A stretch of DNA of 64,000 nucleotides, taken from positions 692 to 64,691 of IMG/VR virus record IMGVR_UViG_3300046782_000291; one strand, given 5' to 3'. Shown piece after piece: positions 34,394 to 63,670 of the stretch. Position 1 is the stretch's first letter. The number at the start of each line of letters is the position of its first letter. The notes beneath the pieces are model-generated. The model saw only the letters and a program-made list of their open reading frames with translations. It was not told where the DNA came from and did no database searches. The position numbers were made by a program, and so were the translations under genes. Origin of the DNA: a virus (Duplodnaviria > Caudoviricetes).

Positions 34394-34791
34394 GGTTCAA
34401 TTCTCCCATCTGGGTGGATCACGTAGATGGTCCTCGATTGTTTCCGGGCGTAGCGCACCGTGGACCACGTGCCCGAGCGGAGGGTCTCCGAGGTTCGAGG
34501 CGCAGCGATGAGCACGTGTGACGCGTCAACGATGTGCTTGTTCCTCTGGAGATACTTGAAACGCTCCGCCACGTGACCGCCTTGACAGAAGGCACGCTTG
34601 ATGGACTCTATCGGCGGATGGACCACGATCCGGATCTTGAGACTCCTCGCGAGATTGTGCGCCTGTGCGTCTGCGCCGATACAATCGCCATGATGGAGTT
34701 CGGTGGCTCCGAGTTGACCGAGGAGGTCCACCACGGTGGTGGATTGCTCCTCGGTCATCCCGTGTGAGGTGCCGGTGAAGCCGATAATCAT
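34390..34791 (-). CDS. SLOG/DprA-like Rossmann protein
   Basis: IGFTG, HHGDCIGAD, RN..IV and SGTW.TVRYA motifs. Confidence 0.75.
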   Translation of the reverse strand: MIIGFTGTSHGMTEEQSTTVVDLLGQLGATELHHGDCIGADAQAHNLARSLKIRIVVHPPIESIKRAFCQGGHVAERFKYLQRNKHIVDASHVLIAAPRTSETLRSGTWSTVRYARKQSRTIYVIHPDGRIEP

Positions 34792-35657
34792 TCGCCCTCC
34801 TCCGCCCAGCGGTCCCACCGAGGGTGCCGATAGTTCGCGCCGATTTTCTCCTGGTATTCAATACGCAGGCGACGACCAATCGCGGGATGTCCATCCATCC
34901 AATCCACCGGGGCTTCTGCCTCGAACGCACGGCACTGCGCATCGTCGATGGTCTTGACTTGCGTCTCCACGCCGTCGTCATCCCTCAGCACCGTCACCGC
35001 GTAAGGTCCACGATTCATGATGGTGCCTTTGGACGCCTGGAAGCCGATGACCGTGAGCACCGCCGTCTTCAGCCCCTTGAGCTTGATCCAGTCCTCCTTC
35101 GGACGTTTCCCTGGGCTGTAGCGAGCCGCAATGCGCTTGACGATGAGCCCTTCCTTGCCCATCGCGAACATGTCGGCCAGGAGTTGGTTCACATCCGGGA
35201 AGGAGTTCACCTTGACCACCAGCGAGAGGCGGAGGTGGCGCGACTGGATGTGTGGTCGTTTGAATATCTCCTCCAGATACGCACGCCGTTCGGTCCACGG
35301 CTGCATGATGGTATTGGTTCGGAGGAGTTCTAGCACGTCGAAGATGACGTACACCAGGCTGGACGCCTGGGTGAGTTCCGTCACATTGTGAGACTTACCC
35401 TCGGGTGCGATGAGTTCGCCATCGTAGATGCCGTTGGGTAGCTTGACGAGGGCGGTGACGAGGTGGAAGGGCAACAACCGGACCTTCCCGTCACGACTCC
35501 ACGCGGTGATGACCGCCGTTCCGTTGAGCGGCACTTCGCTCCGTTCCACGATGAGCCGGTGCCCATCATATTTTTGTTCCGCTACGTATTTGCCTGGAGT
35601 AATCACCAGTGGCGTCTTGGGCATCGCTGCTGCTAGCATGGGTTCTATGAAGCTCAT
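34788..35657 (-). CDS. lig: ATP-dependent DNA ligase
   Basis: EQKYDGHR, DGEL, FDVL, EGLIVK, WIKLK and RHPR motifs. Confidence 0.92.
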   Translation of the reverse strand: MSFIEPMLAAAMPKTPLVITPGKYVAEQKYDGHRLIVERSEVPLNGTAVITAWSRDGKVRLLPFHLVTALVKLPNGIYDGELIAPEGKSHNVTELTQASSLVYVIFDVLELLRTNTIMQPWTERRAYLEEIFKRPHIQSRHLRLSLVVKVNSFPDVNQLLADMFAMGKEGLIVKRIAARYSPGKRPKEDWIKLKGLKTAVLTVIGFQASKGTIMNRGPYAVTVLRDDDGVETQVKTIDDAQCRAFEAEAPVDWMDGHPAIGRRLRIEYQEKIGANYRHPRWDRWAEEGE

Positions 35658-38778: not shown

Positions 38779-38821
38779 AAATGCCGCCCGGAAGGGTTTT
38801 CACCCTCCCGGACGGCATTTT
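38779..38821 (-). terminator. Intrinsic terminator closing the ribozyme-array operon
   Basis: Minus-strand UGCCGUCCGGGAGGGU-GAAA-ACCCUUCCGGGCGGCA-UUU; the G-U pairs work only on the - strand. Confidence 0.7.
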
Positions 38822-38862: not shown

Positions 38863-38946
38863 CTACAACGTCGCCAGCACGCAGAGCATCGCGAGGATGC
38901 CGGCGATGACGAAGCCGATGATGAGGTCCTTCGTCCAGTTCTTCAC
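38863..38946 (-). CDS. 27-aa TM peptide
   Basis: GAGGAGG RBS, GTGA overlap; MKNWTKDLIIGFVIAGILAMLCVLATL. Confidence 0.45.
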   Translation of the reverse strand: MKNWTKDLIIGFVIAGILAMLCVLATL

Positions 38947-39152
38947 TTGCCCTCCTCGGTGGCCTCGCGCACGTCGATGACCTTCACCATCGAGTCGTTC
39001 TGCGGGTGATTCATCGCCATCTGCACGCGGCGCTCAACTTGCTTCGGCGTTTCGGAGCCGTCCGACTCGATCACGAGGACCCGAGCCTTGCCTGACCGTC
39101 TTCGTGACGTGGTCGTCATCGGAACAACGGTCACCAGATACTTCTTCATCAC
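38943..39152 (-). CDS. Hypothetical protein
   Basis: GGAGG RBS. Confidence 0.55.
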   Translation of the reverse strand: MMKKYLVTVVPMTTTSRRRSGKARVLVIESDGSETPKQVERRVQMAMNHPQNDSMVKVIDVREATEEGK

Positions 39153-39161
39153 ATCCTCCAG

Positions 39162-39527
39162 TCACATGCCGTAAGTTCGATACGGGAACGCGGGCTTCAC
39201 GAAGGAGATGCGCTGCGTGTAGTCCAACGCTTCCCACCGTGCGAAGAGATTGGCGCGGTCTTCCGTCGTCCAGCTGCGCGTGCGCTCCTTGAAAATCTCC
39301 TCTGGTCTCCCGGCGTCCAAGCAGATCTCAATCACCAGCGAGCGGGAGACCGTGACGCTGTTTACGCTCTTGCCCTTCTCCTCTGCGATGCTCGTCAGAA
39401 GGTCATAGGCAACCTCATTCCAGACGTCAGCGACGCAGCCCTGGATGAGCTTGAGTTCCGCCTCGTTGAACTCGATCCACGTGCCGTCCTTCTTGTTCTT
39501 GAACCCTCGCGTTGTCGTTGTCTTCAT
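39162..39527 (-). CDS. Hypothetical protein after HH13
   Basis: ATG 2 nt after ribozyme stem II; SD GAGG inside the ribozyme. Confidence 0.7.
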   Translation of the reverse strand: MKTTTTRGFKNKKDGTWIEFNEAELKLIQGCVADVWNEVAYDLLTSIAEEKGKSVNSVTVSRSLVIEICLDAGRPEEIFKERTRSWTTEDRANLFARWEALDYTQRISFVKPAFPYRTYGM

Positions 39528-39529
39528 AA

Positions 39530-39593
39530 GGCACCTCATCAGGCCGGATGATTCCGGCGACGGACCGCGCGGTGGCGATCCGTTTCGTATGCC
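39530..39593 (-). ncRNA. Type II hammerhead ribozyme HH13
   Basis: GGCAUAC-GAAA-CGGAUCGC/GCGGUCCG-UC^GCCGG-AAUCAU-CCGGC-CUGAUGA-GGUGCC; predicted cut 39559/39558. Confidence 0.92.
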
Positions 39594-39692
39594 CTACTTC
39601 CAGAAGTTCCGGAGGATGTAGCCCCACGTGAACCCTTGCTGCTGGAGCAACCAGAATCGGCGGACTGCGAGTCGCAGGTTGATCCGTCTCAT
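39594..39692 (-). CDS. 32-aa basic/aromatic peptide (not in ORF track)
   Basis: GGAG RBS, ATGA overlap; TAG abuts HH13. Confidence 0.55.
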   Translation of the reverse strand: MRRINLRLAVRRFWLLQQQGFTWGYILRNFWK

Positions 39693-39928
39693 TTGGTCTC
39701 CTTCTTCGGTCCGATCCACGTCAACAGGAAAGAGCCGTCTTGCTTGACCAGCCCTGCGTTGATGAGCGAGCCGATGAGCGCCTCGTAGGTCCGAAGGCTC
39801 ATATGTCCCTGCATCCGAACGTACAGGTGGCCGGAGGGGATGGAGCCGACCTCCTGGATGATGTCCGCAACGGCTTTCACCACCTCTAGCATCGCCGTGA
39901 CTTGCTTCGAGGTGATGCTAGAGTTCAC
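39689..39928 (-). CDS. Small winged-HTH-like hypothetical protein
   Basis: GGAGG RBS; IPSGHLY...L...GLV pattern. Confidence 0.55.
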   Translation of the reverse strand: MNSSITSKQVTAMLEVVKAVADIIQEVGSIPSGHLYVRMQGHMSLRTYEALIGSLINAGLVKQDGSFLLTWIGPKKETK

Positions 39929-40073
39929 TGGACACCTCCGCCCGAATGTCGCGGTGGCGAGCCGGTCTGCGCTGGCCGAGGAACTTCATCATCGCGTCCA
40001 CGTGCTTGTACGGCGACAGGTCCACCGTGCGCGTTGTCTTCTTCGTTGTCTTGGTCGTCTTCTTCGTTTTCAT
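39918..40073 (-). CDS. 51-aa Lys/Thr-rich peptide after HH12 (not in ORF track)
   Basis: MKTKKTTKTTKKTTRTVDLSPYKH...; ATG 3 nt after stem II. Confidence 0.55.
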   Translation of the reverse strand: MKTKKTTKTTKKTTRTVDLSPYKHVDAMMKFLGQRRPARHRDIRAEVSSEL

Positions 40074-40076
40074 CGA

Positions 40077-40140
40077 GGCACCTCATCAGGCCGGTCCATT
40101 CCGGCGACGGATCACCCGGTGGCGGTCCGTTTCGTGTGCC
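40077..40140 (-). ncRNA. Type II hammerhead ribozyme HH12
   Basis: GGCACAC-GAAA-stem III-GUC^GCCGG-AAUGGA-CCGGC-CUGAUGA-GGUGCC; predicted cut 40106/40105. Confidence 0.92.
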
Positions 40141-40670
40141 TACCAACGAGCCCACGTGGGCAGGCGCTGGTAGATGCGTTCGGCAATCTTCTCGTACACG
40201 GTGGCGGTCGTGATCTCACCCTTGAGCCGGAGCCGTTTGGCGGTGGCGATGTTGGCGGCATAGTTCGCCAACTGACCCATGGCCAGCCGCGTTCCACGTC
40301 CACCGTTCGGGAACACGCCACGGACGTTCCGCCCATTCTGGTGGTCCGACCAGAAATCCATGAGCGTGGAGGCGTCCATCGTGTCGAGGTTCGGCACGTT
40401 GGCCTCTGGAACGAAGGCTGGCGTACACTTGTGCTGGTGCATCCGACCAACCGGAAGATGCCGCCCGCAATCGCAGATGGCCATGACCCGGAGACCGGCC
40501 CAGTTGCGCCGCATGCCCGTCTTCGGCGGCAGCGGACGAACGTACACGCGCACGCCGTCGATCACCCTCTCGGGCATCCCTTCGGCGGGCAGCGAGCCTT
40601 GCGTCACTCCGAGGTAGGTGTACATGTCGGTGGCGTTCGCATAGCGATACCGCCCAGTGATCAATTTCAT
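40140..40670 (-). CDS. Hypothetical protein (Cys/His Zn motif) between HH11 and HH12
   Basis: ATG and TAG both abut ribozymes; CDCGR...HQHKC. Confidence 0.7.
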   Translation of the reverse strand: MKLITGRYRYANATDMYTYLGVTQGSLPAEGMPERVIDGVRVYVRPLPPKTGMRRNWAGLRVMAICDCGRHLPVGRMHQHKCTPAFVPEANVPNLDTMDASTLMDFWSDHQNGRNVRGVFPNGGRGTRLAMGQLANYAANIATAKRLRLKGEITTATVYEKIAERIYQRLPTWARW

Positions 40671-40672
40671 AA

Positions 40673-40729
40673 GGCACCTCATCAGGCTGGTCCATTCCAG
40701 CGACGGGCTTGCGCCCGTTTCGTTATGCC
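40673..40729 (-). ncRNA. Type II hammerhead ribozyme HH11
   Basis: Stem I GCUGG/CCAGC (compensatory change); stem III CGGGC-GCAA-GCCCG; predicted cut 40702/40701. Confidence 0.93.
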
Positions 40730-41631
40730 TCGTCATCGCCTGTATGGAAACGAACGACTGCGTTGTCGAATGGCGTTGGAACAACCGTCACGTTCACGAC
40801 CACAGGCCGTTTGCCGAAGGAGAAGGATGGATCGTCCTTGCTCCGTTCGAACGTGGCCGTGATCGTCACCGTGTCGGTCCGGTTGATCTCCGCCTTGGCC
40901 GGGCACGTGAGCCAGACCTTGGCGTTGTTCTCCAGCTTCATGAGCATCTTCGTGACCACGCCAAAGTCAGTGGCCTGTTCCTTCATGCTCAACACGACGC
41001 CCGTGACGGTCACCCGTCCTTCCGGAGCCTCACCTTTGACCTCGGTGGCCTCTACCGCACGCCGTGCAGCGTTCTGGATATCGCGGGCCAGGGACGAAAG
41101 CACGGCAGCAATCTGGCGCTCGCTGAGCGAGCCGTACAGGTTGAGCTTCGCGAGCACGTCCTGCGCAAAGAGGTTCTTGGCGTGGACGGGGTTCTTGAGT
41201 TGTTCGACCGCGTCAGCGACCTCCGGATGTGTCGCGAGGAACGCGGTGCGCAGGTTCCAGATCTTCATCCTCGCGTGCCCGGCTTCCGCCTTGCTCTTCA
41301 GCTGGGCCAGCTTGAACGCCATCTGGTTCGCGAAGCCGAGCCGTTCAGTGCAATCGGCTCCGAAGACGACCACCTCACCGGTGGGCTGGTGACGGACGGC
41401 GGTGATCCACCGGACGTTCCCGTTGCCGCAGTGGACGCAGTGGTGAATCTTTGCGCGCCAGTTCGCGCCGAAGGTTCGCAGCATGTTTTCCTGGAACCAC
41501 TTGACCTCCAGCGCATACTCCTCGCTGGTCTGGCCATAGAACGGCGGACGTTTGTTGTCGAGGTAGTCCACGACTTCGTAGTGCGAGGGTTCGAAGTTCG
41601 TGGGGTTGTGGACGGTAGGCTTCTTGGCCAT
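40723..41631 (-). CDS. Hypothetical protein (Zn finger plus possible OB fold) between HH10 and HH11
   Basis: CVHCG...GADC; C-terminal EGRVTVTGVV..K beta-rich domain. Confidence 0.7.
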   Translation of the reverse strand: MAKKPTVHNPTNFEPSHYEVVDYLDNKRPPFYGQTSEEYALEVKWFQENMLRTFGANWRAKIHHCVHCGNGNVRWITAVRHQPTGEVVVFGADCTERLGFANQMAFKLAQLKSKAEAGHARMKIWNLRTAFLATHPEVADAVEQLKNPVHAKNLFAQDVLAKLNLYGSLSERQIAAVLSSLARDIQNAARRAVEATEVKGEAPEGRVTVTGVVLSMKEQATDFGVVTKMLMKLENNAKVWLTCPAKAEINRTDTVTITATFERSKDDPSFSFGKRPVVVNVTVVPTPFDNAVVRFHTGDDEA

Positions 41632-41633
41632 GG

Positions 41634-41694
41634 GGCACCTCATCAGGCCGGTTGATTCCGGCGACGAGGGTGGTTGGCCCTCGTTTCGTATGCC
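41634..41694 (-). ncRNA. Type II hammerhead ribozyme HH10
   Basis: Full core GAAA...GUC...CUGAUGA; stem III CGAGGG/CCCUCG; predicted cut 41663/41662. Confidence 0.92.
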
Positions 41695-41960
41695 TAGCGT
41701 GTCTTGTTCCGTTCCTCGCAGTAGCCTGCTGCCGCCTCCAGCGAGACGAACGGCTCAGTGTTCACCGCGTCATCGCCGTAGTAGATGTGGTACAGCTTGC
41801 CGAGGAGCCGCACGTGGTAGTGCTTCACCCCTGGCTGGTAGACGCGTGCGGCATCCTCCGCCTCGCCACGGCTGGCGAAGCCTCCAGCGAGGAGACCGTT
41901 GTCATTGTAGATGGCCCAGTGGCGGTCGAGGGTGCGCTGTCGCTGGACGACGATCATCAC
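41694..41960 (-). CDS. Hypothetical protein
   Basis: AGGAGG RBS, GTGA overlap; TAG overlaps HH10. Confidence 0.6.
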   Translation of the reverse strand: MMIVVQRQRTLDRHWAIYNDNGLLAGGFASRGEAEDAARVYQPGVKHYHVRLLGKLYHIYYGDDAVNTEPFVSLEAAAGYCEERNKTR

Positions 41961-42169
41961 AGCACCTCCTTCTCGATGACCGGTTGCTGAGCGAGCCGAT
42001 GCCCGTTCATCCGCGCCAGCGCGGCGTTGACGTTGGAGTAGGCTTCGCTGAGCGTGGCCGTGTCCCAGACGGAGGGAACGGTGACGGCTGCGAGTTTGTC
42101 GAGCCGTCGTGCAGCTGTTCGGAGCATCCGAGCCGCATCGTTGAGCGGGTGGGTCTTGTTCGATTGCAT
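41957..42169 (-). CDS. Hypothetical protein after HH9
   Basis: ATG 2 nt after stem II. Confidence 0.65.
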   Translation of the reverse strand: MQSNKTHPLNDAARMLRTAARRLDKLAAVTVPSVWDTATLSEAYSNVNAALARMNGHRLAQQPVIEKEVL

Positions 42170-42171
42170 AA

Positions 42172-42233
42172 GGCACCTCATCAGGCCGGTCAATTCCGGC
42201 GACGAGGGCTTGCCGCCCTCGTTTCGTTATGCC
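42172..42233 (-). ncRNA. Type II hammerhead ribozyme HH9
   Basis: Full core; upstream UAA lies inside the stem II bulge; predicted cut 42201/42200. Confidence 0.92.
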
Positions 42234-42571
42234 TGATCGGAGAACTGCGTCACGAACGTTGCCCAGGCAATCGTGCGCGCCTGGTCGGCAAGATTCGAGG
42301 TGTGGGAGGTAGACGACTCGGGAGACCGGGCACCGCGCAGCGCCTCGCGCATCGCGTAGGACAGGCAATACGCGGGTCCAGCCTTCGGGTTGTCGTTCAT
42401 GCAGCGGAGTTGGTCGGTCACGTTCAGCATGGCTGAGGCTTTGATCGCCTCGTCACCCCAGCTGAACGCATAGAACGGGTCCTTGCCGAATCGTTCGGAG
42501 AACTTCGCCAATTCACGCTTGGCCATCTCCTCCATCGAGTCGATCCACTTGGTGATTCGTTCGTTGGTCAT
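42227..42571 (-). CDS. Hypothetical protein between HH8 and HH9
   Basis: Start and stop both abut ribozymes. Confidence 0.7.
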   Translation of the reverse strand: MTNERITKWIDSMEEMAKRELAKFSERFGKDPFYAFSWGDEAIKASAMLNVTDQLRCMNDNPKAGPAYCLSYAMREALRGARSPESSTSHTSNLADQARTIAWATFVTQFSDQA

Positions 42572-42575
42572 GATA

Positions 42576-42633
42576 GGTTCCTCGTCAGGCCGGTCCATTC
42601 CGGCGACGGACCACGTGGTCCGTTTCGTGAACC
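42576..42633 (-). ncRNA. Type II hammerhead ribozyme HH8
   Basis: Stem II swapped to GGUUC(A)C/GGAACC (compensatory); core CUGACGA; predicted cut 42605/42604. Confidence 0.93.
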
Positions 42634-42675
42634 CGAACCGGTGGCGAGCCGATGCCCGCCACCGGGCGTGTCGTC

Positions 42676-43107
42676 CTACTTCTTGCCCTTGCCCTTGCCC
42701 GCGACGGGCTTGGCCGGAGCGTCAGCCGCCGGAGCGTCAGCCGCCGGAGCCGCAGCCGCCGGAGCCGCAGCCGCCGGAGCCACCTTGGGCGTGCCCACCG
42801 GCAACGAGGTGGGCGAGGGAACCTCGGTGAACCGGGAGGTCACCGCGCCAACGCTGGCCGACTTGCGCACCCAGCCCTTGGCGATCGCATCGGTCACCAG
42901 GGCATCGAACTTCGCCTTGGCCTTGGTCTGGGCATCCTTCTCGGTGAGGCTGATGGTCGTGCGCGCACCGCTCATCGCCCGCTCACCGGGGCGGATGGCG
43001 CTGATGAAGACGTGGATGCCGGTCTTGCCGGTGCGAGCGCGCACGGACATCTTGACGCCGGTGCTGTGGCTGAAGTTGACGGTCTGCTTGAAGTTGTTGG
43101 TAGCCAT
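42676..43107 (-). CDS. Basic protein with C-terminal APAA repeats and Lys tail (possible nucleic-acid binder)
   Basis: Own AGGAG RBS; 15-bp tandem repeats at about 42712-42781. Confidence 0.7.
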   Translation of the reverse strand: MATNNFKQTVNFSHSTGVKMSVRARTGKTGIHVFISAIRPGERAMSGARTTISLTEKDAQTKAKAKFDALVTDAIAKGWVRKSASVGAVTSRFTEVPSPTSLPVGTPKVAPAAAAPAAAAPAADAPAADAPAKPVAGKGKGKK

Positions 43108-43135
43108 GGTCGTGTCTCTCCTGAGAACTGAATGA

Positions 43136-43195
43136 GGACATCTCATCAGGCCGGTTGATTCCGGCGACGGGCTTCGCAGCCCGTTTCGATTGTCC
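43136..43195 (-). ncRNA. Type II hammerhead ribozyme HH7
   Basis: Stem II swapped to GGACA(A)UC/GAUGUCC (compensatory); predicted cut 43166/43165. Confidence 0.93.
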
Positions 43196-43479
43196 TACCG
43201 CTGTCGGTGGACCACCTCGACCTCGTGGTCCATGAGTTCCAACGTCCGTCCGTCCGTCGTGAGCACCGTCCAGCAATACTCCACGTTGTCCTCGGTCACC
43301 GTCGTGTCGGTGGCGACTCCGGATGCCGTCAGGCTTGGTCCTGCGTAGTCACCATCAATCGTATAGATGGCGGTGTTCAACCCGAGCACGAGCACGACCT
43401 GGCCGATGTCCGCGCTGGAGGGCGGAAGTTCACGTCCATTGTAGCCGTCTCTGTCGTGGGCGACGATCTTGAGTTTCAT
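43195..43479 (-). CDS. Hypothetical protein between HH6 and HH7
   Basis: Start and stop both abut ribozymes. Confidence 0.7.
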   Translation of the reverse strand: MKLKIVAHDRDGYNGRELPPSSADIGQVVLVLGLNTAIYTIDGDYAGPSLTASGVATDTTVTEDNVEYCWTVLTTDGRTLELMDHEVEVVHRQR

Positions 43480-43481
43480 AA

Positions 43482-43542
43482 GGCACCTCATCAGGCCGGT
43501 CCATTCCGGCGACGAGGGCGGCAAGCCCTCGTTTCGTATGCC
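43482..43542 (-). ncRNA. Type II hammerhead ribozyme HH6
   Basis: GGCAUAC-GAAA-CGAGGGC/GCCCUCG-UC^GCCGG-AAUGGA-CCGGC-CUGAUGA-GGUGCC; predicted cut 43511/43510. Confidence 0.93.
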
Positions 43543-43763
43543 TACTTCTCTGGAGCGTGGAACCAGCATCCATCCATATCCTTCTCCGGCTCCGTTGGAC
43601 CGAGGTAGTCCAACAGATCGTACAGCGCATCCTTCTTCGTTCTGCGCCATCCACCACCAACGCTCGCATCGGTCTCCAGATACCACCGCCACCCGTCTGG
43701 GGTCTTGGCGATGATGTACGCACCGAGCCGGTAGAATCCAGCGCCGATCTTCTTGGTCCTCAT
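43542..43763 (-). CDS. Hypothetical protein between HH5 and HH6
   Basis: Start and stop both abut ribozymes. Confidence 0.7.
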   Translation of the reverse strand: MRTKKIGAGFYRLGAYIIAKTPDGWRWYLETDASVGGGWRRTKKDALYDLLDYLGPTEPEKDMDGCWFHAPEK

Positions 43764-43765
43764 TT

Positions 43766-43826
43766 GGCACCTCTTCAGGCCGGTCCATTCCGGCGACGAG
43801 GGCTTGCCACCCTCGTTTCGTATGCC
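43766..43826 (-). ncRNA. Type II hammerhead ribozyme HH5
   Basis: Core CUGAAGA (variable position 7); predicted cut 43795/43794. Confidence 0.92.
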
Positions 43827-44119
43827 TACAGGTTGTCGAGCGTCACGCCGATGCGCGTCATCAGGTCCGTCCAGGTGCTCATGTCCGCACCCTTCTTCGT
43901 CTTGAGCACCTTCAGGTGATCGATGATTTCGTTCTTGTAGTCCGTCACGGCTTCGTCACCGTAGTCTGAAATTGCGTTCTCCATCCCAGCGAGTTCGAAG
44001 CACTCGTGGCAGATGTCGCCGCAACCGGATTGGTCGGCTTCGACGTGTCGCGTCAATCGCGTGCATACGCGGCAGTTGAAGGTTGACGACCCACGGCGGA
44101 AGGTCTTGATCGTTCTCAT
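43826..44119 (-). CDS. Hypothetical Zn-finger protein between HH4 and HH5
   Basis: F.CRVC.R.TR...ICHECFE motif. Confidence 0.7.
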   Translation of the reverse strand: MRTIKTFRRGSSTFNCRVCTRLTRHVEADQSGCGDICHECFELAGMENAISDYGDEAVTDYKNEIIDHLKVLKTKKGADMSTWTDLMTRIGVTLDNL

Positions 44120-44121
44120 TT

Positions 44122-44180
44122 GGCACCTCGTCAGGCCGGTCCATTCCGGCGACGGACCGCAGCGGTCCGTTTCGTATGCC
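44122..44180 (-). ncRNA. Type II hammerhead ribozyme HH4
   Basis: Core CUGACGA; stem III CGGACCG/CGGUCCG; predicted cut 44151/44150. Confidence 0.92.
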
Positions 44181-44372
44181 TTACGCTCGTGAGTGTCCGT
44201 TCCACGTGTCGCCGTCGCAATCTGGGCCCCATACCTGGTGCCACTGGATGCCTTCATCTTCCAGCCAGCTCACGAAACGGAATGCTTCATCCTTCGTGCG
44301 GAACTTGCGTGACTGGATACGGCCAAAGGGCTTCTTGCTGAACTCAACTCTGTAGGGGAAGGGCTTGCTCAT
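44181..44372 (-). CDS. Hypothetical protein between HH3 and HH4
   Basis: Start and stop both abut ribozymes. Confidence 0.65.
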   Translation of the reverse strand: MSKPFPYRVEFSKKPFGRIQSRKFRTKDEAFRFVSWLEDEGIQWHQVWGPDCDGDTWNGHSRA

Positions 44373-44376
44373 CTCG

Positions 44377-44440
44377 GGCACCTCGTCAGGCCGGTCCATT
44401 CCGGCGAACCGGGCCCAAGTGGGCTCGGTTTTCTAATGCC
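44377..44440 (-). ncRNA. Type II hammerhead ribozyme HH3 (variant with UUC triplet)
   Basis: 15.2-16.2 pair changed from C-G to A-U; 5' stem II strand GGCAUUA lacks C11.1; predicted cut 44406/44405. Confidence 0.82.
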
Positions 44441-44652
44441 TACTTCTTGTTGAGCGTGTAACGCGCATAGACCGATGAATTTACTGGCACATCGATCAGG
44501 CCATCTTTGCGCATCCGCCATCCAGTTGGCCCTGATGTCCTGCGCCCGTCGTCAAAAAACAGCGCCGATGAATAACCACCGCCACATGTCGGCAAGTCAC
44601 CAGCGCGCATCCTCCGCAACGCTTCTGCTCGTGAGAGGAATCGAGTCTTCAT
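44440..44652 (-). CDS. Hypothetical protein between HH2 and HH3
   Basis: Start and stop both abut ribozymes. Confidence 0.65.
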   Translation of the reverse strand: MKTRFLSRAEALRRMRAGDLPTCGGGYSSALFFDDGRRTSGPTGWRMRKDGLIDVPVNSSVYARYTLNKK

Positions 44653-44654
44653 TT

Positions 44655-44715
44655 GGCACCTCGTCAGGCCGGTCAATTCCGGCGACGAACCGCAGCGCGG
44701 TCCGTTTCGTATGCC
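44655..44715 (-). ncRNA. Type II hammerhead ribozyme HH2
   Basis: Full core; predicted cut 44684/44683. Confidence 0.92.
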
Positions 44716-44813
44716 TAGCGGTGAACCTCGGAGAGCGCCAGCGCGGCGCCCATCACGAGGGTGGTTGCGAGATCGTAACAGAGAAGGAAGAGAGCGACAA
44801 TCGGAGAATTCAT
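44715..44813 (-). CDS. 32-aa hydrophobic peptide (not in ORF track)
   Basis: GGAGG RBS, ATGA overlap; TAG overlaps HH2. Confidence 0.5.
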   Translation of the reverse strand: MNSPIVALFLLCYDLATTLVMGAALALSEVHR

Positions 44814-44926
44814 CGTGACCTCCGGGCCACCACGCGGTGGGCGTGGACGTTCATGTCGAACGATTCGACTTCTTCACCCTGCAGAACGCACACGGAGACG
44901 AGGAGGAGAGCGAACAAATGCTTCAT
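44810..44926 (-). CDS. 38-aa peptide with signal-like N-terminus after HH1 (not in ORF track)
   Basis: MKHLFALLLVSVCVLQG... Confidence 0.4.
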   Translation of the reverse strand: MKHLFALLLVSVCVLQGEEVESFDMNVHAHRVVARRSR

Positions 44927-44929
44927 TGG

Positions 44930-44991
44930 ATGGAACCATCATCAGGCCAGTTAATTCTGGCGACGGGCTTGTGGCCCGTTTCGTATGCCAT
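44930..44991 (-). ncRNA. Type II hammerhead ribozyme HH1 (weak stem II)
   Basis: Stem I GCCAG/CUGGC (compensatory); intact GAAA, GUC and CUGAUGA; stem II imperfect; predicted cut 44962/44961. Confidence 0.8.
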
Positions 44992-45355
44992 GTCGTTGCT
45001 GGAATCCAACCAGCGGCCCAGCGGGCTGCAAGAGCACGACGTTGCGAGAGCACGCCACCACCCGGTCGATTGGGCGGTGGCGGCGGGTCGGTTTTGGTCT
45101 TCGGGGTTTGTCTTCGGGGTTCCTCGGAGAGAGTCGCCTGGGCCTGGGCTGAACGTGCTCCCTAGACTCTCTCCGTCTTACTTCGTGACCGCGTCCATCT
45201 CGACGTTCGGGGGTGCTGACCTCGTCTCTCGACGATTCATCCCGGCGCATCGCGCTGGTCGTTTCCGTTCTGGCGCCTTTGGCTCCGGTCTTCTGGACAG
45301 TAAGGGCAACCCGTTCCCGGTCACGGTCCGCTTAACACGACAGCGAACTCCTCCA

Positions 45356-45384
45356 AATATACGCGGAGGGCAGCAACCGCGCAA
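45356..45384 (-). promoter_or_regulatory. Sigma70-like promoter driving the ribozyme-array operon
   Basis: TTGCGC-17 nt-TATATT on the - strand with an AT-rich upstream region. Confidence 0.65.
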
Positions 45385-49025: not shown

Positions 49026-49628
49026 CTAATAATCCCTGACCTCCCATATGATCGTGTTCCGTCTCGGAAGCACGCCCACTGGGCATGAGAACGCTGCCAG
49101 CTCTATGGCCGCCTCGGGATACCACTGGAGTAGTAGCATCACGTCTTCGAAGGAGGCAGGATCCAGACATCGTCGCAGCGCCATCATCGTCTGGAGATAG
49201 CCCATCGGCTGGTGGTAGCCTGCCGCCATCGTCCACCGCATCGGCGGAAGCCCAGTGGGATACCCGTTCTTGGCGAGGGTCTCCAGGTCTGCCACGGTCA
49301 TCGTGGCGCGTTCACAGAAATACCCTTCCAGCCCCTTCTCCGTCCGCACCATCTCGCCCTGGAGGATGGCGCTCAGGTTCGGCACCGCGCCGTCCATCAT
49401 GAACGTGTACCCTCGGGCACTCCATTCCTGCGCGGTGGCGTGTGCTTGGTCCCGAGGGACAAGACACCATGCGCCCTTTGCACCCTTCGCCGTGTTGAGT
49501 TGGCGGAAGCCGATCATGGGAACGCCTGACGCATAAGCGTCATCGACACTATGCCATAAGAGGGTGCGGTTGCCGAGTCGTTCTTGTTCCCAGAGGGTGA
49601 AGAACTCCCGTTTGTTCTGAATCTTCAT
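49026..49628 (-). CDS. Hypothetical protein coupled to the hydroxymethylase gene
   Basis: ATGA overlap; ends IIWEVRDY. Confidence 0.65.
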   Translation of the reverse strand: MKIQNKREFFTLWEQERLGNRTLLWHSVDDAYASGVPMIGFRQLNTAKGAKGAWCLVPRDQAHATAQEWSARGYTFMMDGAVPNLSAILQGEMVRTEKGLEGYFCERATMTVADLETLAKNGYPTGLPPMRWTMAAGYHQPMGYLQTMMALRRCLDPASFEDVMLLLQWYPEAAIELAAFSCPVGVLPRRNTIIWEVRDY

Positions 49629-50680
49629 CTCATCCAACGCCGTTCCAGCCACTCGATGCCGGCACAGGTCCAATCGTAGTGGTTGGTGGAGGACCGTTCC
49701 AACATCTCGATGGCGTCTCGGGTCTCCCCATCTTTGTGGAGCCGGTGCGCCATGAACATCTGCATGATCGTCTTCGCCCACGGCTCGTCATACTCCCGGT
49801 AGTTGCCCATATCGGCACTCTCCAGGAGTTGCCGGACGGCTTCCACGTGGTCGTATCCGAAGAGGGTGGGCTGGAACAGCTTGACCGGAAACAACAACGG
49901 CTTCACGGCATCCATCGTCGTGTAATAGTCGCCATGGTCTGCCGGCTTGTGTCTCAGGTCCTTCACCTTCTCCAGCGTGGTGAGATACCCGTGCCAGTTC
50001 ACGCTGATCTGGGTGTAGGTTCCAACCGGCACGCCGATCCAGAGCGCCATGTATTCGAGGAGCATACTGAAGTGGACCGCGTTTGCGCCGTAGGCACCCC
50101 AGACGATGTCGTTGGACCGACAGAAGACGACGAGGTGGAGCCGTCCGTCCGGACCGATCTGGAAGGTGGCCGTGTCGTTACAGGGCAGGTCCTTCCCTTG
50201 CCGGCCCAGGTCGAGTTCGGCAGACCACATCTGGAGGACGCATCGACGGTCGGTGGGATCGTGGGTGAGCTGTTGCGCGATGATCGCCAGCTGGTCAAAG
50301 GGCTTCCGGAACTCATACGCGCTGGCGCCTTGCGCGGACCGAGCCTTGAACGCCTTCCGCCAGCGGTAACCATACGCCCCATGCAGCGTCTTCCCGTCGT
50401 CGCTGAAGTTGTTCATGTTCGAGGAGTAGCGTGCCGGCCCAGCCACGTCATTCCGGCCAGCTAGCATCCACAGCGCTTCGTACAGATGGAAGAACGGATT
50501 GGCGTCACGCTCCGGCCAGAACATGACCCGCTCGCATGGATGGGTGTAGATGGTCGCCACCGGCACCGGAGCCTGGAGGACTGGGCCGTTGCGCGAGTCG
50601 CGTTTGATGCCGACCTCGTACAGCAGCCGAACGGCTTGAGGGAGTGCCTGGTGGACGTTACGCACGTGGAGTGTGATCAT
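49625..50680 (-). CDS. Thymidylate-synthase-fold enzyme, probable dUMP hydroxymethylase
   Basis: SRNG, ANPFF, GAYG.RW, DLPCN, RSND..WG.YGAN and H.Y motifs; cluster context. Confidence 0.85.
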   Translation of the reverse strand: MITLHVRNVHQALPQAVRLLYEVGIKRDSRNGPVLQAPVPVATIYTHPCERVMFWPERDANPFFHLYEALWMLAGRNDVAGPARYSSNMNNFSDDGKTLHGAYGYRWRKAFKARSAQGASAYEFRKPFDQLAIIAQQLTHDPTDRRCVLQMWSAELDLGRQGKDLPCNDTATFQIGPDGRLHLVVFCRSNDIVWGAYGANAVHFSMLLEYMALWIGVPVGTYTQISVNWHGYLTTLEKVKDLRHKPADHGDYYTTMDAVKPLLFPVKLFQPTLFGYDHVEAVRQLLESADMGNYREYDEPWAKTIMQMFMAHRLHKDGETRDAIEMLERSSTNHYDWTCAGIEWLERRWMR

Positions 50681-51062
50681 CGCTAGTTACCCTTTTCCGT
50701 CTACCCATATTGAACTTCGGATTCTTCCATGCATTGATGGTGCCTTCGCGTTGTTTCTCCCTTGCCAGTCTGGCCCTTTCAGGGTCATTGGGCGGAAAGA
50801 ATTTGAGGGGCAGTGTCGGGTCTCTCAGATAGTCAGCGGCTCGGATTAACAGCCGTGGGTTGTCTCTGAACCCACCAAGACCAATGTTACACCCGTTGCA
50901 CAGAAGACCTCGAACCATTCCTGTCTCATGGTCATGGTCTATACAGAGTCCAATTCCTGTTGGTACACCACCGCAGATATCGCAAAGACCTCCGGTCTCC
51001 CTTTTGTACTCATCGATGAACTCCCGTTGGAAGGGAGCCAGCTTCTGCCTCCTAGACATCAT
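50658..51062 (-). CDS. Endonuclease VII-like (probable homing) nuclease
   Basis: CDICG...DHDHETGMVRGLLCNGCN.GLG.F.D. Confidence 0.88.
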   Translation of the reverse strand: MMSRRQKLAPFQREFIDEYKRETGGLCDICGGVPTGIGLCIDHDHETGMVRGLLCNGCNIGLGGFRDNPRLLIRAADYLRDPTLPLKFFPPNDPERARLAREKQREGTINAWKNPKFNMGRRKRVTSDDHTPRA

Positions 51063-51601
51063 CTACCCTTCCATTGGACTTGGCTTCCGGCTTTACGCCA
51101 TAACAACTCGACGATGCCGTAAGGTTGTGTACCAGATACGTCTACCATATCATTCCAATCCAGTGCTGCTTCTATAGTTGCCCAACTAGTCCAATAATCG
51201 AAGAAGCCTGCACCTTCATAGATCCCTCCTCCATGGCCATGACAAAACTCTGAGTGAGCGCTGCGAGGGTGAAGTCCAAGAAACAAAATGGGCAATCCAT
51301 ATCTCTCACTAGAGTCGTCTTTGCTTGCTGGGTGACCTGATAGCTCAAACTCCTTGTGAACCTCTAACGGCTTCACTTCAACAAAGAAGGAATGACCGCC
51401 CCCGCATTCACTATGCCCGCATCCAAATGTCATGCGAAAATCAGGAACCCAATCTCTGAAATCTACGGGTTCGTATTCCCATTGCCACCCACAAAGATCG
51501 AACATAGCTGCCCATCGTGCTTCGAGACGGGAACGAAATTGTACTCCAGCATATATCGTTGGATTCGCCTTAATCAAACCTTGTGTAATCACCACTATCA
51601 T
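51059..51601 (-). CDS. PD-(D/E)XK-like nuclease
   Basis: Y.G..FRSRLEARWA..FD....WEYEP...W.PDF...VEVK. Confidence 0.7.
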   Translation of the reverse strand: MIVVITQGLIKANPTIYAGVQFRSRLEARWAAMFDLCGWQWEYEPVDFRDWVPDFRMTFGCGHSECGGGHSFFVEVKPLEVHKEFELSGHPASKDDSSERYGLPILFLGLHPRSAHSEFCHGHGGGIYEGAGFFDYWTSWATIEAALDWNDMVDVSGTQPYGIVELLWRKAGSQVQWKGR

Positions 51602-51891
51602 CCTTGGTGAACAGAACTCGGAAGCCGTGCCGGACTGGACACGACCACCAACGCTTCAAACTCGATGTTCCGCTGCCCGGTTCGACGTTCGGTGAACGCC
51701 AGCGGGAACCGAACCAACGCCATACCCTCGCATCCCTCCCATCCTGGGGCAACCTCGACCACGAGACCGACGTGCCCCACGAGGCTGCGCCGGTCTTCTT
51801 CCGACTCGCCCGAACCCTCCCAGGCGTCCGGTACACTGTCTACTCGCACGTAGTCACCCAGATGTGGATCCACACGCATTGGATAGCCCAT
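51598..51891 (-). CDS. Hypothetical SH3-like protein
   Basis: GGAG RBS, TAATG junction; GD.VRV...VG.VG.V pattern. Confidence 0.5.
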   Translation of the reverse strand: MGYPMRVDPHLGDYVRVDSVPDAWEGSGESEEDRRSLVGHVGLVVEVAPGWEGCEGMALVRFPLAFTERRTGQRNIEFEALVVVSSPARLPSSVHQG

Positions 51892-55197: not shown

Positions 55198-55276
55198 GGT
55201 GACTCCTTCTGTGTCCGAATATCCAGAACATCGTGTCGTGGTCGATGAGGTCCCAATGGTCGAATGTAATCATGCC

Positions 55277-56970: not shown

Positions 56971-57011
56971 CCAAGTATCCTAGTGGGAAGGGGTCCCCAA
57001 GTAAAGGGAAA

Positions 57012-63463: not shown

Positions 63464-63670
63464 TCACTCCTCCTTCTTGATATCCAGCCGTCCCAGGGCG
63501 GTCTCGGAAATCTCAATATGTACACGCAGGTTCGCCGGCAGTCCATTGAGGATCTGTTCGACCTCCCACAACTGCCGCATCTGGGAAATCGTCAGCGACT
63601 CCGAGCACTCCGCCTCGAACCGCATCGGACGGCGACGACCACGCTGTTGGATCGTAAGGGCCAGTTTCAT
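63464..63670 (-). CDS. Hypothetical protein
   Basis: GAGG RBS, ATGA overlap. Confidence 0.5.
   Translation of the reverse strand: MKLALTIQQRGRRRPMRFEAECSESLTISQMRQLWEVEQILNGLPANLRVHIEISETALGRLDIKKEE

What the first reader, a model, noticed from the sequence alone, without database searches (positions are those of the whole stretch)
39530..44991. Array of 13 type II hammerhead ribozymes punctuating a phage operon (self-cutting polycistronic mRNA)
Seen: a ~60-nt element recurs 13 times on the - strand, always at gene boundaries. Its consensus is GGCAUAC-GAAA-[stem III hairpin]-GUC^-GCCGG-AAUNNA-CCGGC-CUGANGA-GGUGCC. Established: CUGANGA, GAAA and NUH are the hammerhead catalytic core, and an open stem II defines type II. 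The core is invariant except the known free position 7 (U/C/A). All three stems covary: stem I GCCGG/CCGGC, GCUGG/CCAGC, GCCAG/CUGGC; stem II GGCAU/GUGCC, GGUUC/GAACC, GGACA/UGUCC; stem III is variable but always paired, including a C-G to A-U swap next to the core in HH3. This points to selection on RNA structure rather than on a DNA site. Inference: the ~6.6-kb transcript (promoter 45356-45384 to terminator 38779-38821) cuts itself into 1-3-gene units of about 278, 278, 255, 356, 284, 345, 561, 404, 538, 961, 596 and 547 nt. Each unit would have a 5'-OH terminal hairpin and a 3' hairpin with 2',3'-cyclic phosphate, which should resist 5'-monophosphate-dependent decay. Single hammerheads are known in bacteria and phages, but I do not know of a gene-by-gene array of this size.
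Basis: partly seen in the sequence, partly recalled or inferred. Interest (0 to 1): 0.97.

Follow-up and report, generated by a model that had tools for sequence, protein, structure and literature searches.

The report
Thirteen-hammerhead ribozyme array in phage operon
An uncultured soil phage places thirteen self-cutting hammerhead RNA motifs exactly between the genes of one operon, a large and very regular example of an arrangement known in phages since 2011.

Summary
Thirteen type II hammerhead motifs lie on the - strand at 39528-44991. The core (CUGANGA, GAAA, UC) is intact in 13 of 13. The three stems covary. HH1 has a defective stem II. Rfam's gathering threshold finds none; 6 of 13 score 23-33 bits against a cut-off of 37.

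Each motif fills a whole intergenic gap. The upstream stop codon lies in the 5' strand of stem II. The core/stem II junction (GAGGUG) is the only Shine-Dalgarno-like motif I saw by eye before the next start codon.

A model built from these copies finds 36 more in seven other IMG/VR contigs. Whole-record counts are 5-9 in five of them, and those with a portal or polymerase match share 47-59% identity with this phage.

Cleavage is untested, because no RNA run holds this DNA. Clustered hammerheads flanking phage genes, and the idea of cutting long transcripts, were published in 2011 (PMC3088659). This scan had already noted such arrays on other DNA. Verdict: real, ordinary in kind, notable in size and regularity.

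The parts
44931..44991 (-). HH1, in the leader before g1; cut site 44962/44961. Variant copy: U instead of G10.1 and a C.U mismatch in stem II.
   Evidence: Core is intact. The MFE fold lacks stem II, and the stem II duplex is only -1.9 kcal/mol. R1 scores 65.4 bits. Four of 4 other metagenome runs carry C at 44934 (+ strand), which restores the C-G pair.
44653..44717 (-). HH2; cut site 44684/44683; lies between g2 and g3.
   Evidence: 85.1 bits. Rfam RF02276 scores 26.4 bits.
44375..44442 (-). HH3; cut site 44406/44405; lies between g3 and g4. It has the 'UA-GAAA' junction and A15.2-U16.2.
   Evidence: 60.5 bits. In relatives, the 10.1-11.1 column pair is not C-G in 17 of 49 copies, and 14 of 49 read C-UAGAAA at the junction.
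44120..44182 (-). HH4; cut site 44151/44150; lies between g4 and g5.
   Evidence: 84.1 bits. Rfam scores 33.0 bits, the best of the 13.
43764..43828 (-). HH5; cut site 43795/43794; lies between g5 and g6; N7 = A.
   Evidence: 81.9 bits.
43480..43544 (-). HH6; cut site 43511/43510; lies between g6 and g7.
   Evidence: 85.9 bits.
43135..43196 (-). HH7; cut site 43166/43165; lies between g7 and g8. Its stem II is distinct (GGACA..UC/GAUGUCC) and contains no GAGG. g8 has its own SD, AGGAGAG.
   Evidence: 73.7 bits. Rfam scores 25.2 bits. The sequence was read.
42574..42635 (-). HH8; cut site 42605/42604; lies between g8 and g9. Its stem II is distinct (GGUUC.C/GGAACC).
   Evidence: 77.7 bits. Rfam scores 31.7 bits.
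42170..42234 (-). HH9; cut site 42201/42200; lies between g9 and g10. The stop codon TAA lies inside the 5' strand of stem II (GGCAUAAC).
   Evidence: 81.3 bits; sequence read.
41632..41696 (-). HH10; cut site 41663/41662; lies between g11 and g12.
   Evidence: 82.8 bits.
40671..40730 (-). HH11; cut site 40702/40701; lies between g12 and g13. Stem I is GCUGG/CCAGC.
   Evidence: 78.3 bits.
40075..40142 (-). HH12; cut site 40106/40105; lies between g13 and g14.
   Evidence: 76.7 bits. Rfam scores 23.8 bits.
39528..39595 (-). HH13; cut site 39559/39558; lies between g16 and g17.
   Evidence: 78.2 bits. Rfam scores 23.0 bits.
44715..44926 (-). g1 (44810-44926, 38 aa) and g2 (44715-44813, 32 aa). 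These are overlapping small ORFs forming unit 1, and their coding status is uncertain.
   Evidence: GC3 0.73-0.74.
44440..44652 (-). g3, 70 aa, function unknown.
   Evidence: no family hit.
44181..44372 (-). g4, 63 aa, function unknown.
43826..44119 (-). g5, 97 aa. Matches phrog_3633, a phage family of unknown function.
   Evidence: E 1.2e-10.
43542..43763 (-). g6, 73 aa, function unknown.
43195..43479 (-). g7, 94 aa. Homologues lie in the arrays of L006 and L002.
   Evidence: 45% and 29% identity.
42676..43107 (-). g8, 143 aa. It has a WGR-like N-terminal domain, then Pro/Ala repeats and a Lys/Gly tail. It is the gene most often shared between arrays.
   Evidence: homologues in L007, L003, L001 and L002. 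(Atlas structure rows with TM 0.64-0.71 to WGR and ligase-WGR clusters; a lead only).
42638..42665 (-). A 12-bp G+C-rich hairpin between the g8 stop codon and HH8.
   Evidence: -26.9 kcal/mol, z = -3.1.
42227..42571 (-). g9, 114 aa. Matches phrog_11723 (function unknown).
   Evidence: E 1.6e-6.
41694..42169 (-). g10 (41957-42169, 70 aa) and g11 (41694-41957, 87 aa). The stop and start codons overlap, and the two genes form one unit.
   Evidence: sequence read.
40723..41631 (-). g12, 302 aa. Matches phrog_18425, phrog_4750 and phrog_4265 (functions unknown).
   Evidence: E 4e-22.
40140..40670 (-). g13, 176 aa, function unknown.
39594..40073 (-). g14 (39918-40073), g15 (39689-39928) and g16 (39594-39692). 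The three overlap and form one unit.
38863..39527 (-). g17 (39162-39527), g18 (38943-39149) and g19 (38863-38946), the last unit. g17 and g18 have homologues in other arrays.
38779..38820 (-). A perfect 19-bp hairpin after g19, with an A-tract before it and UUU after it. It is a possible terminator or 3' stabiliser. It sits where relatives carry a hammerhead before the helicase gene.
   Evidence: -47 kcal/mol, z = -7.6. Not called by the terminator scan. Relatives.
45356..45384 (-).
   Evidence: The sequence is present. It falls below the scan's criteria and is unverified.

Best explanation
The 13 elements are cis-acting type II hammerhead ribozymes. They belong to a compact subtype: stem I is a 5-bp hairpin with a conserved AAUNNA loop, stem III is a variable hairpin, and stem II is open with 6 bp and a bulge.

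The elements are transcribed as part of a - strand operon of small phage genes of unknown function, probably early genes. The transcript would cut itself after C17 at each non-overlapping gene junction. That yields a leader, 12 internal units of 255-961 nt carrying 1-3 genes each, and a 3' unit.

Each downstream product would begin with a 5'-OH, the stem I hairpin and CUGANGA-GGUGCC. The GAGGUG in that sequence serves as the Shine-Dalgarno motif 4-6 nt before the AUG. Most cistrons would therefore receive the same short 5' UTR. Each upstream product would end just after its stop codon with the stem III hairpin and a 2',3'-cyclic phosphate.

Shown here: the motif, its geometry, covariation, and conservation in a clade of related phages.

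Inferred: cleavage itself (about 0.8 for most copies, lower for HH1); uncoupling and insulation of the cistrons; end protection; and freeing of the SD on product release (about 0.4).
For: Core and cut-site nucleotides are intact in 13 of 13, and the MFE fold gives the three-way junction in 12 of 13.

Covariation within the window: 95.9% of 221 cells are paired, 9 of 17 pairs show double changes, 0 of 500 shuffles reach the observed values, and slid controls give 30-44%. Across 49 copies from 8 contigs: 96.0% of 818 cells are paired against 74.5% when shuffled, 151 cells are compensatory against 43.5, and 0 of 500 shuffles reach this. The eight highest mutual-information column pairs are all predicted base pairs.

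Stem II has U.G in 10 of the 13 window copies, and such wobble pairs would be A.C mismatches on the other strand. The fold is therefore strand-specific and lies on the coding strand.

Six of 13 copies are independently recognised as Hammerhead_II by Rfam at E 0.0009-0.36.

Geometry: 12 of 12 gaps of 52 nt or more hold a hammerhead and 6 of 6 junctions of 12 nt or less do not. In 46 of 49 copies an ORF of at least 30 codons starts 6-14 nt after the core, against a null of 0.18. In 38 of 49 an upstream ORF stops within -2 to +8 nt of G12. GG follows the core in 45 of 48.

Conservation: five other virus records carry 5-9 copies each. They are related to this phage, with portal identity of 48-52% in 3 of 5 and DNA polymerase identity of 47-59% in 2 of 5. 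The genes between the ribozymes largely differ.

Precedent: clustered prophage hammerheads cleave in vitro, and one set cleaves in vivo after cloning (PMC3088659). Three type II hammerheads near phage-like genes cleave in vivo in Desulfovibrio vulgaris (PMC8782182).
Against: There is no experimental or RNA evidence for this DNA.

None of the 13 copies reaches Rfam's gathering score (best 33.0 against 37), and 7 of 13 are not listed even at E up to 10.

The loop I/3'-tail pseudoknot of the Rfam type II family shows no covariation here. Fast cleavage at cellular Mg2+ would therefore depend on an unidentified tertiary contact.

HH1 lacks G10.1-C11.1 and a stable stem II. HH3 and 17 of 49 family members have a non-C-G 10.1/11.1 position.

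The upstream stop codon lies inside stem II. A terminating ribosome would melt the ribozyme, so cleavage must outrun translation.

Thermodynamic modelling does not show clear unmasking of the SD by cleavage. The mean unpaired probability is 0.34 before and 0.39 after; it rises in 9 copies, falls in 3 and is unchanged in 1 of 13.

The promoter and terminator limits of the transcript are not confirmed.
Confidence: 0.75

Rival explanations
1. The ribozymes are conditional rather than constitutive. Folding competes with the ribosome that terminates on the stop codon inside stem II. Only untranslated or slowly translated junctions would be cut, and in uncut RNA the terminating ribosome would open stem II and pass directly to the SD (translational coupling). 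Cleavage would then act as a switch between coupled and independent expression.
For: In 38 of 49 copies the upstream stop codon ends within -2 to +8 nt of G12, which is inside or abutting the 5' strand of stem II. In 46 of 49 the next start codon lies 6-14 nt after the core. The SD is the 3' strand of stem II. Perreault et al. raise regulated cleavage for phage hammerheads (PMC3088659).
Against: No ligand or sensor element is visible, and the elements fill the gaps completely. The footprint argument comes from general knowledge of ribosomes and was not tested. The same geometry fits simple compaction of a constitutive ribozyme.
Confidence: 0.12
2. The motifs fold but do not cleave to a useful extent in the cell. 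In that case they act as structured intergenic spacers, either as exonuclease barriers or as sites for a host or phage protein or RNase.
For: All copies fall below the Rfam threshold. No pseudoknot is detected. The stem I and stem III hairpins alone are stable.
Against: Every catalytic-core position that a mere hairpin spacer would not need is invariant in 13 of 13 copies, and nearly so in 49 copies from phages that share only about 50% protein identity. Position 7, the one free core position, is the one that varies.
Confidence: 0.06
3. The selected feature is a DNA repeat. Sixty-nucleotide repeats at gene borders would serve as recombination sites that shuffle gene cassettes between phages, and the RNA fold would be incidental.
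For: Gene content between the hammerheads differs among related arrays, while the elements themselves are conserved. Perreault et al. also note that the flanked genes are not constant.
Against: Stem III is the most variable part in sequence yet stays paired through double changes, at 5 of its 6 pairs. G.U pairs make the fold strand-specific. A recombination site would not need an intact hammerhead core. Cassette shuffling may be a side effect rather than an alternative.
Confidence: 0.03

Closest known systems
Clustered hammerhead ribozymes flanking genes in prophages (Perreault et al. 2011, PLoS Comput Biol, PMC3088659; passages read)
   Same: Several hammerheads, including type II, lie on the coding strand and flank single genes or short gene blocks of unknown or anti-restriction function in phage DNA. 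That paper already proposed processing of long phage transcripts into gene-length mRNAs, and tandem sets cleaved in vitro.
   Different: The tested examples there were arrangements of about three on roughly 2-kb RNAs. Here there are 13 in 5.4 kb, one in every non-overlapping junction. The main text of that paper contains no occurrence of 'ribosom', 'translation' or 'RBS'. The fixed stop-ribozyme-SD-start geometry is therefore not described in the parts I could read.
Rfam Hammerhead_II (RF02276)
   Same: The topology (open stem II) and core are the same. Six of 13 copies align over all 66 model positions.
   Different: None of the 13 reaches the 37-bit gathering score. Loop I is 6 nt (AAUNNA) against about 12 in the model. 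Stem II is 6 bp with a bulge rather than 2 modelled pairs. No covariation was found for a loop I/3'-tail pseudoknot.
Type II hammerheads of Desulfovibrio vulgaris, shown active in vivo by cyPhyRNA-seq (PMC8782182; passages read)
   Same: They are type II hammerheads next to hypothetical and phage-like genes, and two of them lie about 300 nt apart.
   Different: They are three copies in a bacterial chromosome with in vivo end mapping. Here there are 13 copies in a phage contig with no RNA data.
Synthetic ribozyme insulators and RBS-masking hammerhead switches (RiboJ, Lou et al. 2012; Hartig-type switches). Both are recalled; only a search listing that uses the term RiboJ was seen.
   Same: They work alike. 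A hammerhead upstream of an RBS cuts off the upstream context, so the gene gets a defined 5' UTR. In the switches, the RBS is paired inside a ribozyme stem.
   Different: Those are engineered single parts, based on type I or type III scaffolds as I recall. Here the arrangement is natural and repeated 13 times, and the SD is formed by A9-G10.1-G10.2 and stem II of a type II ribozyme.
Earlier notes of this scan on other DNA (e1-5963818, e1-6029276, e1-6061586, e1-3541703; for the first three, for e1-3541703)
   Same: They describe arrays of 7-12 type II hammerheads between small phage genes, reaching from the stop codon to the next RBS.
   Different: They concern other genomes. These are AI notes that I did not check on their own DNA. 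One states that arrays reach about 25 copies, which I could not test.

Membership tests
Hammerhead ribozyme (class) | Core strand C3-U4-G5-A6-N7-G8-A9 | tested here: met
   CUGANGA is present in 13 of 13, with N7 = U in 8, C in 4 and A in 1. It is present in 48 of 49 across relatives; one copy reads CUGAAGGA.
Hammerhead ribozyme (class) | G12-A13-A14 followed by the A15.1-U16.1 pair | tested here: met
   GAAA is present in 13 of 13, and the A-U pair forms in 13 of 13 (pair 18-41).
Hammerhead ribozyme (class) | The cleavage-site nucleotide H17 is not G | tested here: met
   C17 in 13 of 13. The site reads GUC in 12 and UUC in HH3.
Hammerhead ribozyme (class) | Three helices around the core, supported by covariation | tested here: met
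   In the 49-copy alignment, 4 of 6 pairs in stem II, 5 of 6 in stem III and 2 of 5 in stem I show double changes. The MFE fold gives the junction in 12 of 13.
Hammerhead ribozyme (class) | Closing pair G10.1-C11.1 of stem II. Perreault et al. rejected hits with a mispair adjacent to the core unless activity was measured. | tested here: inconclusive
   C-G in 11 of 13. HH1 has U opposite C. By my reading, HH3 has U.G plus an extra A before G12. That form is common in relatives, where the position is non-C-G in 17 of 49.
Hammerhead ribozyme (class) | Mg2+-dependent self-cleavage 3' of position 17, giving 2',3'-cyclic phosphate and 5'-OH ends | not testable with these tools
Type II hammerhead, Rfam RF02276 | Stem II is open, and stems I and III are closed by loops | tested here: met
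   True in 13 of 13.
Type II hammerhead, Rfam RF02276 | Score at or above the curated gathering threshold (37 bits) | tested here: not met
   None of 13 reaches it. The best score is 33.0 bits, and 6 of 13 are listed at E up to 10.
Type II hammerhead, Rfam RF02276 | Pseudoknot between loop I and the nucleotides 3' of stem II (Perreault et al.) | tested here: inconclusive
   No loop I column appears among the 30 highest mutual-information pairs in 49 copies. Loop positions 1, 2, 3 and 6 are nearly invariant (A in 49 of 49, A in 44 of 49, U in 47 of 49, A in 48 of 49). That points to some tertiary role that covariation cannot reveal.
Clustered phage or prophage hammerheads (Perreault et al. 2011) | Several hammerheads on one strand flank individual genes or short gene blocks in phage DNA | tested here: met
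   Thirteen copies on the coding strand delimit 12 units of 1-3 genes. The contig is a phage, with terminase, portal, DNA polymerase and helicases.

The most novel reading that the evidence does not exclude
After double cleavage, an excised unit carries the 3' strand of stem II from one hammerhead at its 5' end and the 5' strand of stem II from the next hammerhead at its 3' end. Most copies share the same stem II (GGCAU/GUGCC). By my reading, 8 of the 12 units could therefore fold end to end into a nicked, complete hammerhead. The ribozyme's reverse reaction, or a host RtcB-type ligase, could then close them into circular, exonuclease-proof mRNAs that still carry an internal SD. This would be a bacterial-virus counterpart of viroid and retrozyme RNA circles.
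Probability: 0.05. Interest if true: 0.85.

Novelty: new member of a known kind. Interest (0 to 1): 0.35.

Why it matters
The biological role of bacterial and phage hammerheads remains open according to the 2019 review PMC6765202 (passages read). This array is a clean natural test bed.

It has 13 near-identical ribozymes, each joined to a stop codon on one side and a Shine-Dalgarno motif on the other, in a clade of soil phages that keeps the ribozymes while swapping the genes between them. That allows a direct test of whether self-cleavage uncouples cistrons, equalises 5' UTRs, protects RNA ends or licenses translation.

There is also a practical point. Rfam's gathering threshold misses all 13 copies, so routine annotation will under-count such arrays. 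The model built here, or an equivalent, recovers them.

The kind of system has been known since 2011, and no function is demonstrated here.

Tried and rejected
Rfam at gathering thresholds over the whole window gave 0 matches. A whole-window E-value scan gave no other ribozyme class, only 3 hammerhead rows and one chance lncRNA row.

No RNA holder is listed for the 5.5-kb stretch. All 24 listed runs are soil or rhizosphere DNA contig sets.

I laid four of the 24 DNA runs, chosen for their lower word share in the hope of finding diverged variants. They hold essentially the same phage at low depth. Only two substitutions were seen: 44934 A>C in 4 of 4 runs and 39791 C>A in 1 of 4. No population test of compensatory change was therefore possible.

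SD unmasking by cleavage is not clearly supported by partition-function modelling.

I looked for a cultured relative that carries the array. blastn of one copy against 50,697 phage records found no match. The nearest portal relatives are Brevundimonas phage vB_BpoS-StAshley (35% identity) and Halorubrum phage Hardycor1 (34%). Both gave 0 hits with R1 and with RF02276. The tool warns that an empty answer there shows little.

The search for related loci with the portal protein found nothing. Relatedness was shown instead with the genome search on the array-bearing records.

A word-index search for g8 homologues found only the protein's own cluster.

A weak R1 hit at 63576-63681 (14.4 bits, E 0.037) lies in coding sequence. 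By eye it lacks the hammerhead stems, so I rejected it. Four loose-regex matches elsewhere in the window are not R1 hits.

The record holds no RtcB family match. The record is 84% complete.

The consensus scan did not support the promoter or the terminator.

Circular-RNA reading: where stem II differs (HH7, HH8), it covaries in cis and not with the neighbouring copy. That argues against selection for end-to-end pairing in 3 of the 12 units. Perreault et al. report that they detected no circular or spliced products.

Literature searches for larger arrays or for SD-embedded natural hammerheads returned no such description beyond PMC3088659 and PMC6765202. PMC4509812 is not held. Supplements are closed, so alignments in them may bear on both points.

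Full report
What the window is. The window is bases 692-64691 of a 64,691-base IMG/VR virus record that is linear and estimated 84% complete. Its G+C content is 59.6%. It encodes a large terminase, a portal, a head protein, a primase/helicase, two further helicases, a DNA polymerase and a thymidylate-synthase-like protein. It also encodes an ATP-dependent DNA ligase, an MT-A70 methyltransferase and an amino-acid:DNA transferase. Near-identical DNA occurs in 24 listed soil and rhizosphere DNA runs, and none of these is RNA.

The observation. On the - strand between 39528 and 44991 there are 13 copies of a 60-68-nt element. A strict pattern finds 12 against 0.02 expected. The thirteenth, HH3, differs by an A-U pair next to the core and is found by a looser parse. 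Each copy has this order: stem II 5' strand, GAAA, stem III hairpin, (G/U)UC, stem I hairpin (5 bp with a 6-nt loop), CUGANGA, stem II 3' strand. That is the circular order of a hammerhead with stem II open, which defines type II. The core is intact in 13 of 13, and the free position 7 is U in 8, C in 4 and A in 1.

Is it more than a look-alike? Rfam's gathering thresholds report nothing in the window. In E-value mode, 6 of 13 copies are assigned to Hammerhead_II (RF02276) over the full model at 23.0-33.0 bits, with E from 0.00087 to 0.36 and a cut-off of 37. The other 7 are not listed. The shortfall has visible causes: loop I is 6 nt against about 12 in the model, and only two pairs of stem II are modelled.

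- Structure in the 13 copies. On the 13-copy alignment, 95.9% of 221 cells pair, against 30-44% with partners slid by 1-3 columns. Nine of 17 pairs show changes on both sides, and 0 of 500 shuffles reach the observed pairing or covariation score.
- The covariance model. A model built from the 13 copies (R1) recovers them by construction. It also finds 36 further copies in seven other IMG/VR contigs at E of 1e-6 or below.
- Structure in the 49 copies. On the 49-copy alignment, which is fitted to the model and so leans toward it, 96.0% of 818 cells pair against 74.5% shuffled. There are 151 compensatory cells against 43.5, and 0 of 500 shuffles reach this.
- An independent check. A mutual-information ranking that uses no structure puts eight predicted base pairs in its top eight places.
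- Strand specificity. G.U pairs, such as U.G in stem II in 10 of 13 copies, make the fold specific to the coding strand.
- MFE folds. Single-sequence MFE folds give the three-way junction in 12 of 13.

Exceptions. HH1 has U where G10.1 should be and a C.U mismatch in stem II. Its stem II duplex is worth only -1.9 kcal/mol, against -7.7 to -10.4 for the other 12. In 4 of 4 other metagenome runs position 44934 is C on the + strand, which restores the C-G pair. The U at 10.1 remains. HH3 has 'UA' before GAAA instead of 'AC'. I read this as a U.G closing pair plus one extra A. That form is frequent in relatives, where the 10.1/11.1 columns are non-C-G in 17 of 49 and 14 copies read C-UAGAAA. HH3 is therefore a family variant rather than a wreck. 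Whether that variant cleaves is unknown.

Anatomy relative to the genes. I called 19 - strand ORFs (g1-g19). Their pooled GC3 is 0.80 against a GC2 of 0.45, as expected for real genes in this genome.

- Family matches. I scanned 10 of the 19 ORFs (g3-g9 and g11-g13). None matches a Pfam family above its cut-off. Three match PHROG families of unknown function at E of 1.6e-6 or better, and one more matches weakly at E 0.0028.
- Homologues in other arrays. g7, g8, g17 and g18 have homologues inside other hammerhead arrays.
- Gaps. All 12 gaps of 52-104 nt contain a hammerhead. All 6 junctions of 12 nt or less, four of which overlap, contain none. The units are therefore sets of translationally coupled genes.
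- Use of the gap. The stop codon overlaps or lies inside the 5' strand of stem II (UAG-GCAUAC, or GGCAUAAC). The start codon follows 4-6 nt after GAGGUG in 11 of 13.
- SD spacing. By eye, genes without a hammerhead in front use GGAGG-type motifs at the same spacing (g2, g11, g15, g16, g18).
- g8. The one gene whose hammerhead lacks GAGG is g8, behind HH7. It has its own AGGAGAG.
- Across all 49 copies. In 46 of 49, an ORF of at least 30 codons starts 6-14 nt after the core, against a null of 0.18 for random positions. In 38 of 49 an upstream ORF stops within -2 to +8 nt of G12. GG follows the core in 45 of 48.

Relatives. Whole-record scans give 9, 6, 9, 5 and 7 copies in five other virus records, two of which are complete with terminal repeats.

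- Relatedness. These records are kin of this phage. The portal is 48-52% identical in 3 of 5 and the DNA polymerase 47-59% identical in 2 of 5; the remaining records are fragments.
- Gene content. The genes between the ribozymes mostly differ.
- The helicase slot. In L003 and L002 the helicase gene is preceded by a hammerhead. In the window, that gene follows a 19-bp hairpin at 38779-38820.
- Wider scan. A broader exact-pattern scan found 21 stretches in IMG/VR. The 14 new ones hold 1-3 copies each. Thirteen is the largest array I saw, but exact-pattern scanning is a narrow net.
- Cultured phages. The nearest cultured phages by portal identity (34-35%) gave no hit.

How it most likely works. 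Cleavage after C17 would release, at each junction, an upstream RNA and a downstream RNA. The upstream RNA ends in the stem III hairpin with a 2',3'-cyclic phosphate. The downstream RNA begins with a 5'-OH, the stem I hairpin and the SD. After cleavage the two are held together only by stem II (about -8 kcal/mol as a duplex).

- Likely consequences. Cistrons would be uncoupled from upstream context and would share a common 5' UTR. The ends would be poor substrates for 5'-monophosphate-dependent RNases and for 3' exonucleases. These points follow from the known chemistry of hammerhead products and from general knowledge of bacterial RNA decay. They were not tested.
- SD unmasking. The idea that cleavage unmasks the SD is attractive but weakly supported. 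The modelled unpaired probability of the SD changes from a mean of 0.34 to 0.39.
- Timing. Because the stop codon lies in stem II, a terminating ribosome must melt the ribozyme. Either cleavage is co-transcriptional and fast, or ribosome traffic modulates it (first rival).
- Tertiary contact. No covariation supports the loop I/3'-tail pseudoknot described for type II hammerheads. Loop I is strikingly conserved as A-A-U-N-N-A, which suggests another tertiary contact.

Comparison with what is known. Perreault et al. 2011 (PMC3088659; passages read) state that multiple hammerheads often flank individual genes or short gene blocks in prophages. They say this implies processing of long phage transcripts. 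They report that three tandem arrangements cleaved in vitro and one in vivo, and that they looked for spliced or circular products without finding any. A 2019 review repeats the processing idea and calls the function unresolved (PMC6765202). Three type II hammerheads near phage-like genes cleave in vivo in D. vulgaris (PMC8782182).

In the searches I ran I found no description of arrays of this size or of the stop-ribozyme-SD-start cassette. Supplements are closed and many journals are not held, so this is not proof of absence. Earlier notes of this scan report similar arrays of 7-12 copies on other DNA, also reaching from stop codon to RBS. I did not check those notes on their own DNA.

Verdict. 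This is a large, very regular new member of the clustered phage hammerheads. It belongs to a compact subtype that Rfam's threshold misses, and it is conserved in a clade of soil phages. Interest 0.35. The boldest reading that remains open is circularisation of the excised units through their matching stem II halves. I put it at about 5%, and the cis pattern of stem II covariation at HH7 and HH8 argues against it for those units.

Noticed in passing
window 42676-43107 (-), g8: This 143-aa protein sits between HH7 and HH8, the two hammerheads with unique stem II sequences. It has its own SD and a 3' hairpin (42638-42665). It is the gene most often shared by other arrays (L007, L003, L001, L002). 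Its N-terminal 85 residues resemble WGR domains, which other phages fuse to ATP-dependent DNA ligases (Atlas structure rows, TM 0.64-0.71; a lead only). This phage has a ligase without a WGR domain at 34788-35657.
   Followed up: partly
window 44934: Four of 4 other soil or rhizosphere DNA runs read C here where the window reads A (+ strand). On the RNA this turns UGGUUCC into UGGUGCC and restores a C-G pair in stem II of HH1. The window's copy is therefore the odd allele.
   Followed up: yes
window 38779-38820 (-): A perfect 19-bp hairpin (-47 kcal/mol, z = -7.6) lies between g19 and the 646-aa helicase ORF, whose ATG follows 4 nt later with no SD. In related contigs L003 and L002 a hammerhead occupies this slot.
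   Followed up: partly
L002 9631-9711 (-): This family member has the core CUGAAGGAG, with one extra G, which gives a canonical AGGAG 8 nt before an ATG. It may be a decayed ribozyme kept as a ribosome-binding site.
   Followed up: no
window 49625-57000 (-): A gene set suggests hypermodified thymidine in the phage DNA: a thymidylate-synthase-like protein, a P-loop kinase-like protein (weak AAA_33 hit), a PLP-enzyme-like protein, an amino-acid:DNA transferase (PF18724), a phrog_9252 'DNA repair photolyase' protein and an MT-A70 methyltransferase. Linking these to thymidine hypermodification is my recollection and comes from no call.
   Followed up: no
49 family copies (alignment A2): Two junction classes exist between stem II and G12. 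One reads 'AC-GAAA', with a C-G closing pair and a bulged A. The other reads 'UA-GAAA', which I read as a U.G closing pair with an extra A. The second class accounts for most of the 17 of 49 non-C-G cases and dominates the array of L001.
   Followed up: partly
window 44992-45355 (-): About 360 nt of leader lie between the candidate promoter and HH1. The leader has CCCCGAAGAC-like repeats, and a 99-codon ORF (45250-44951) runs into HH1. I did not assess whether this ORF is coding.
   Followed up: no
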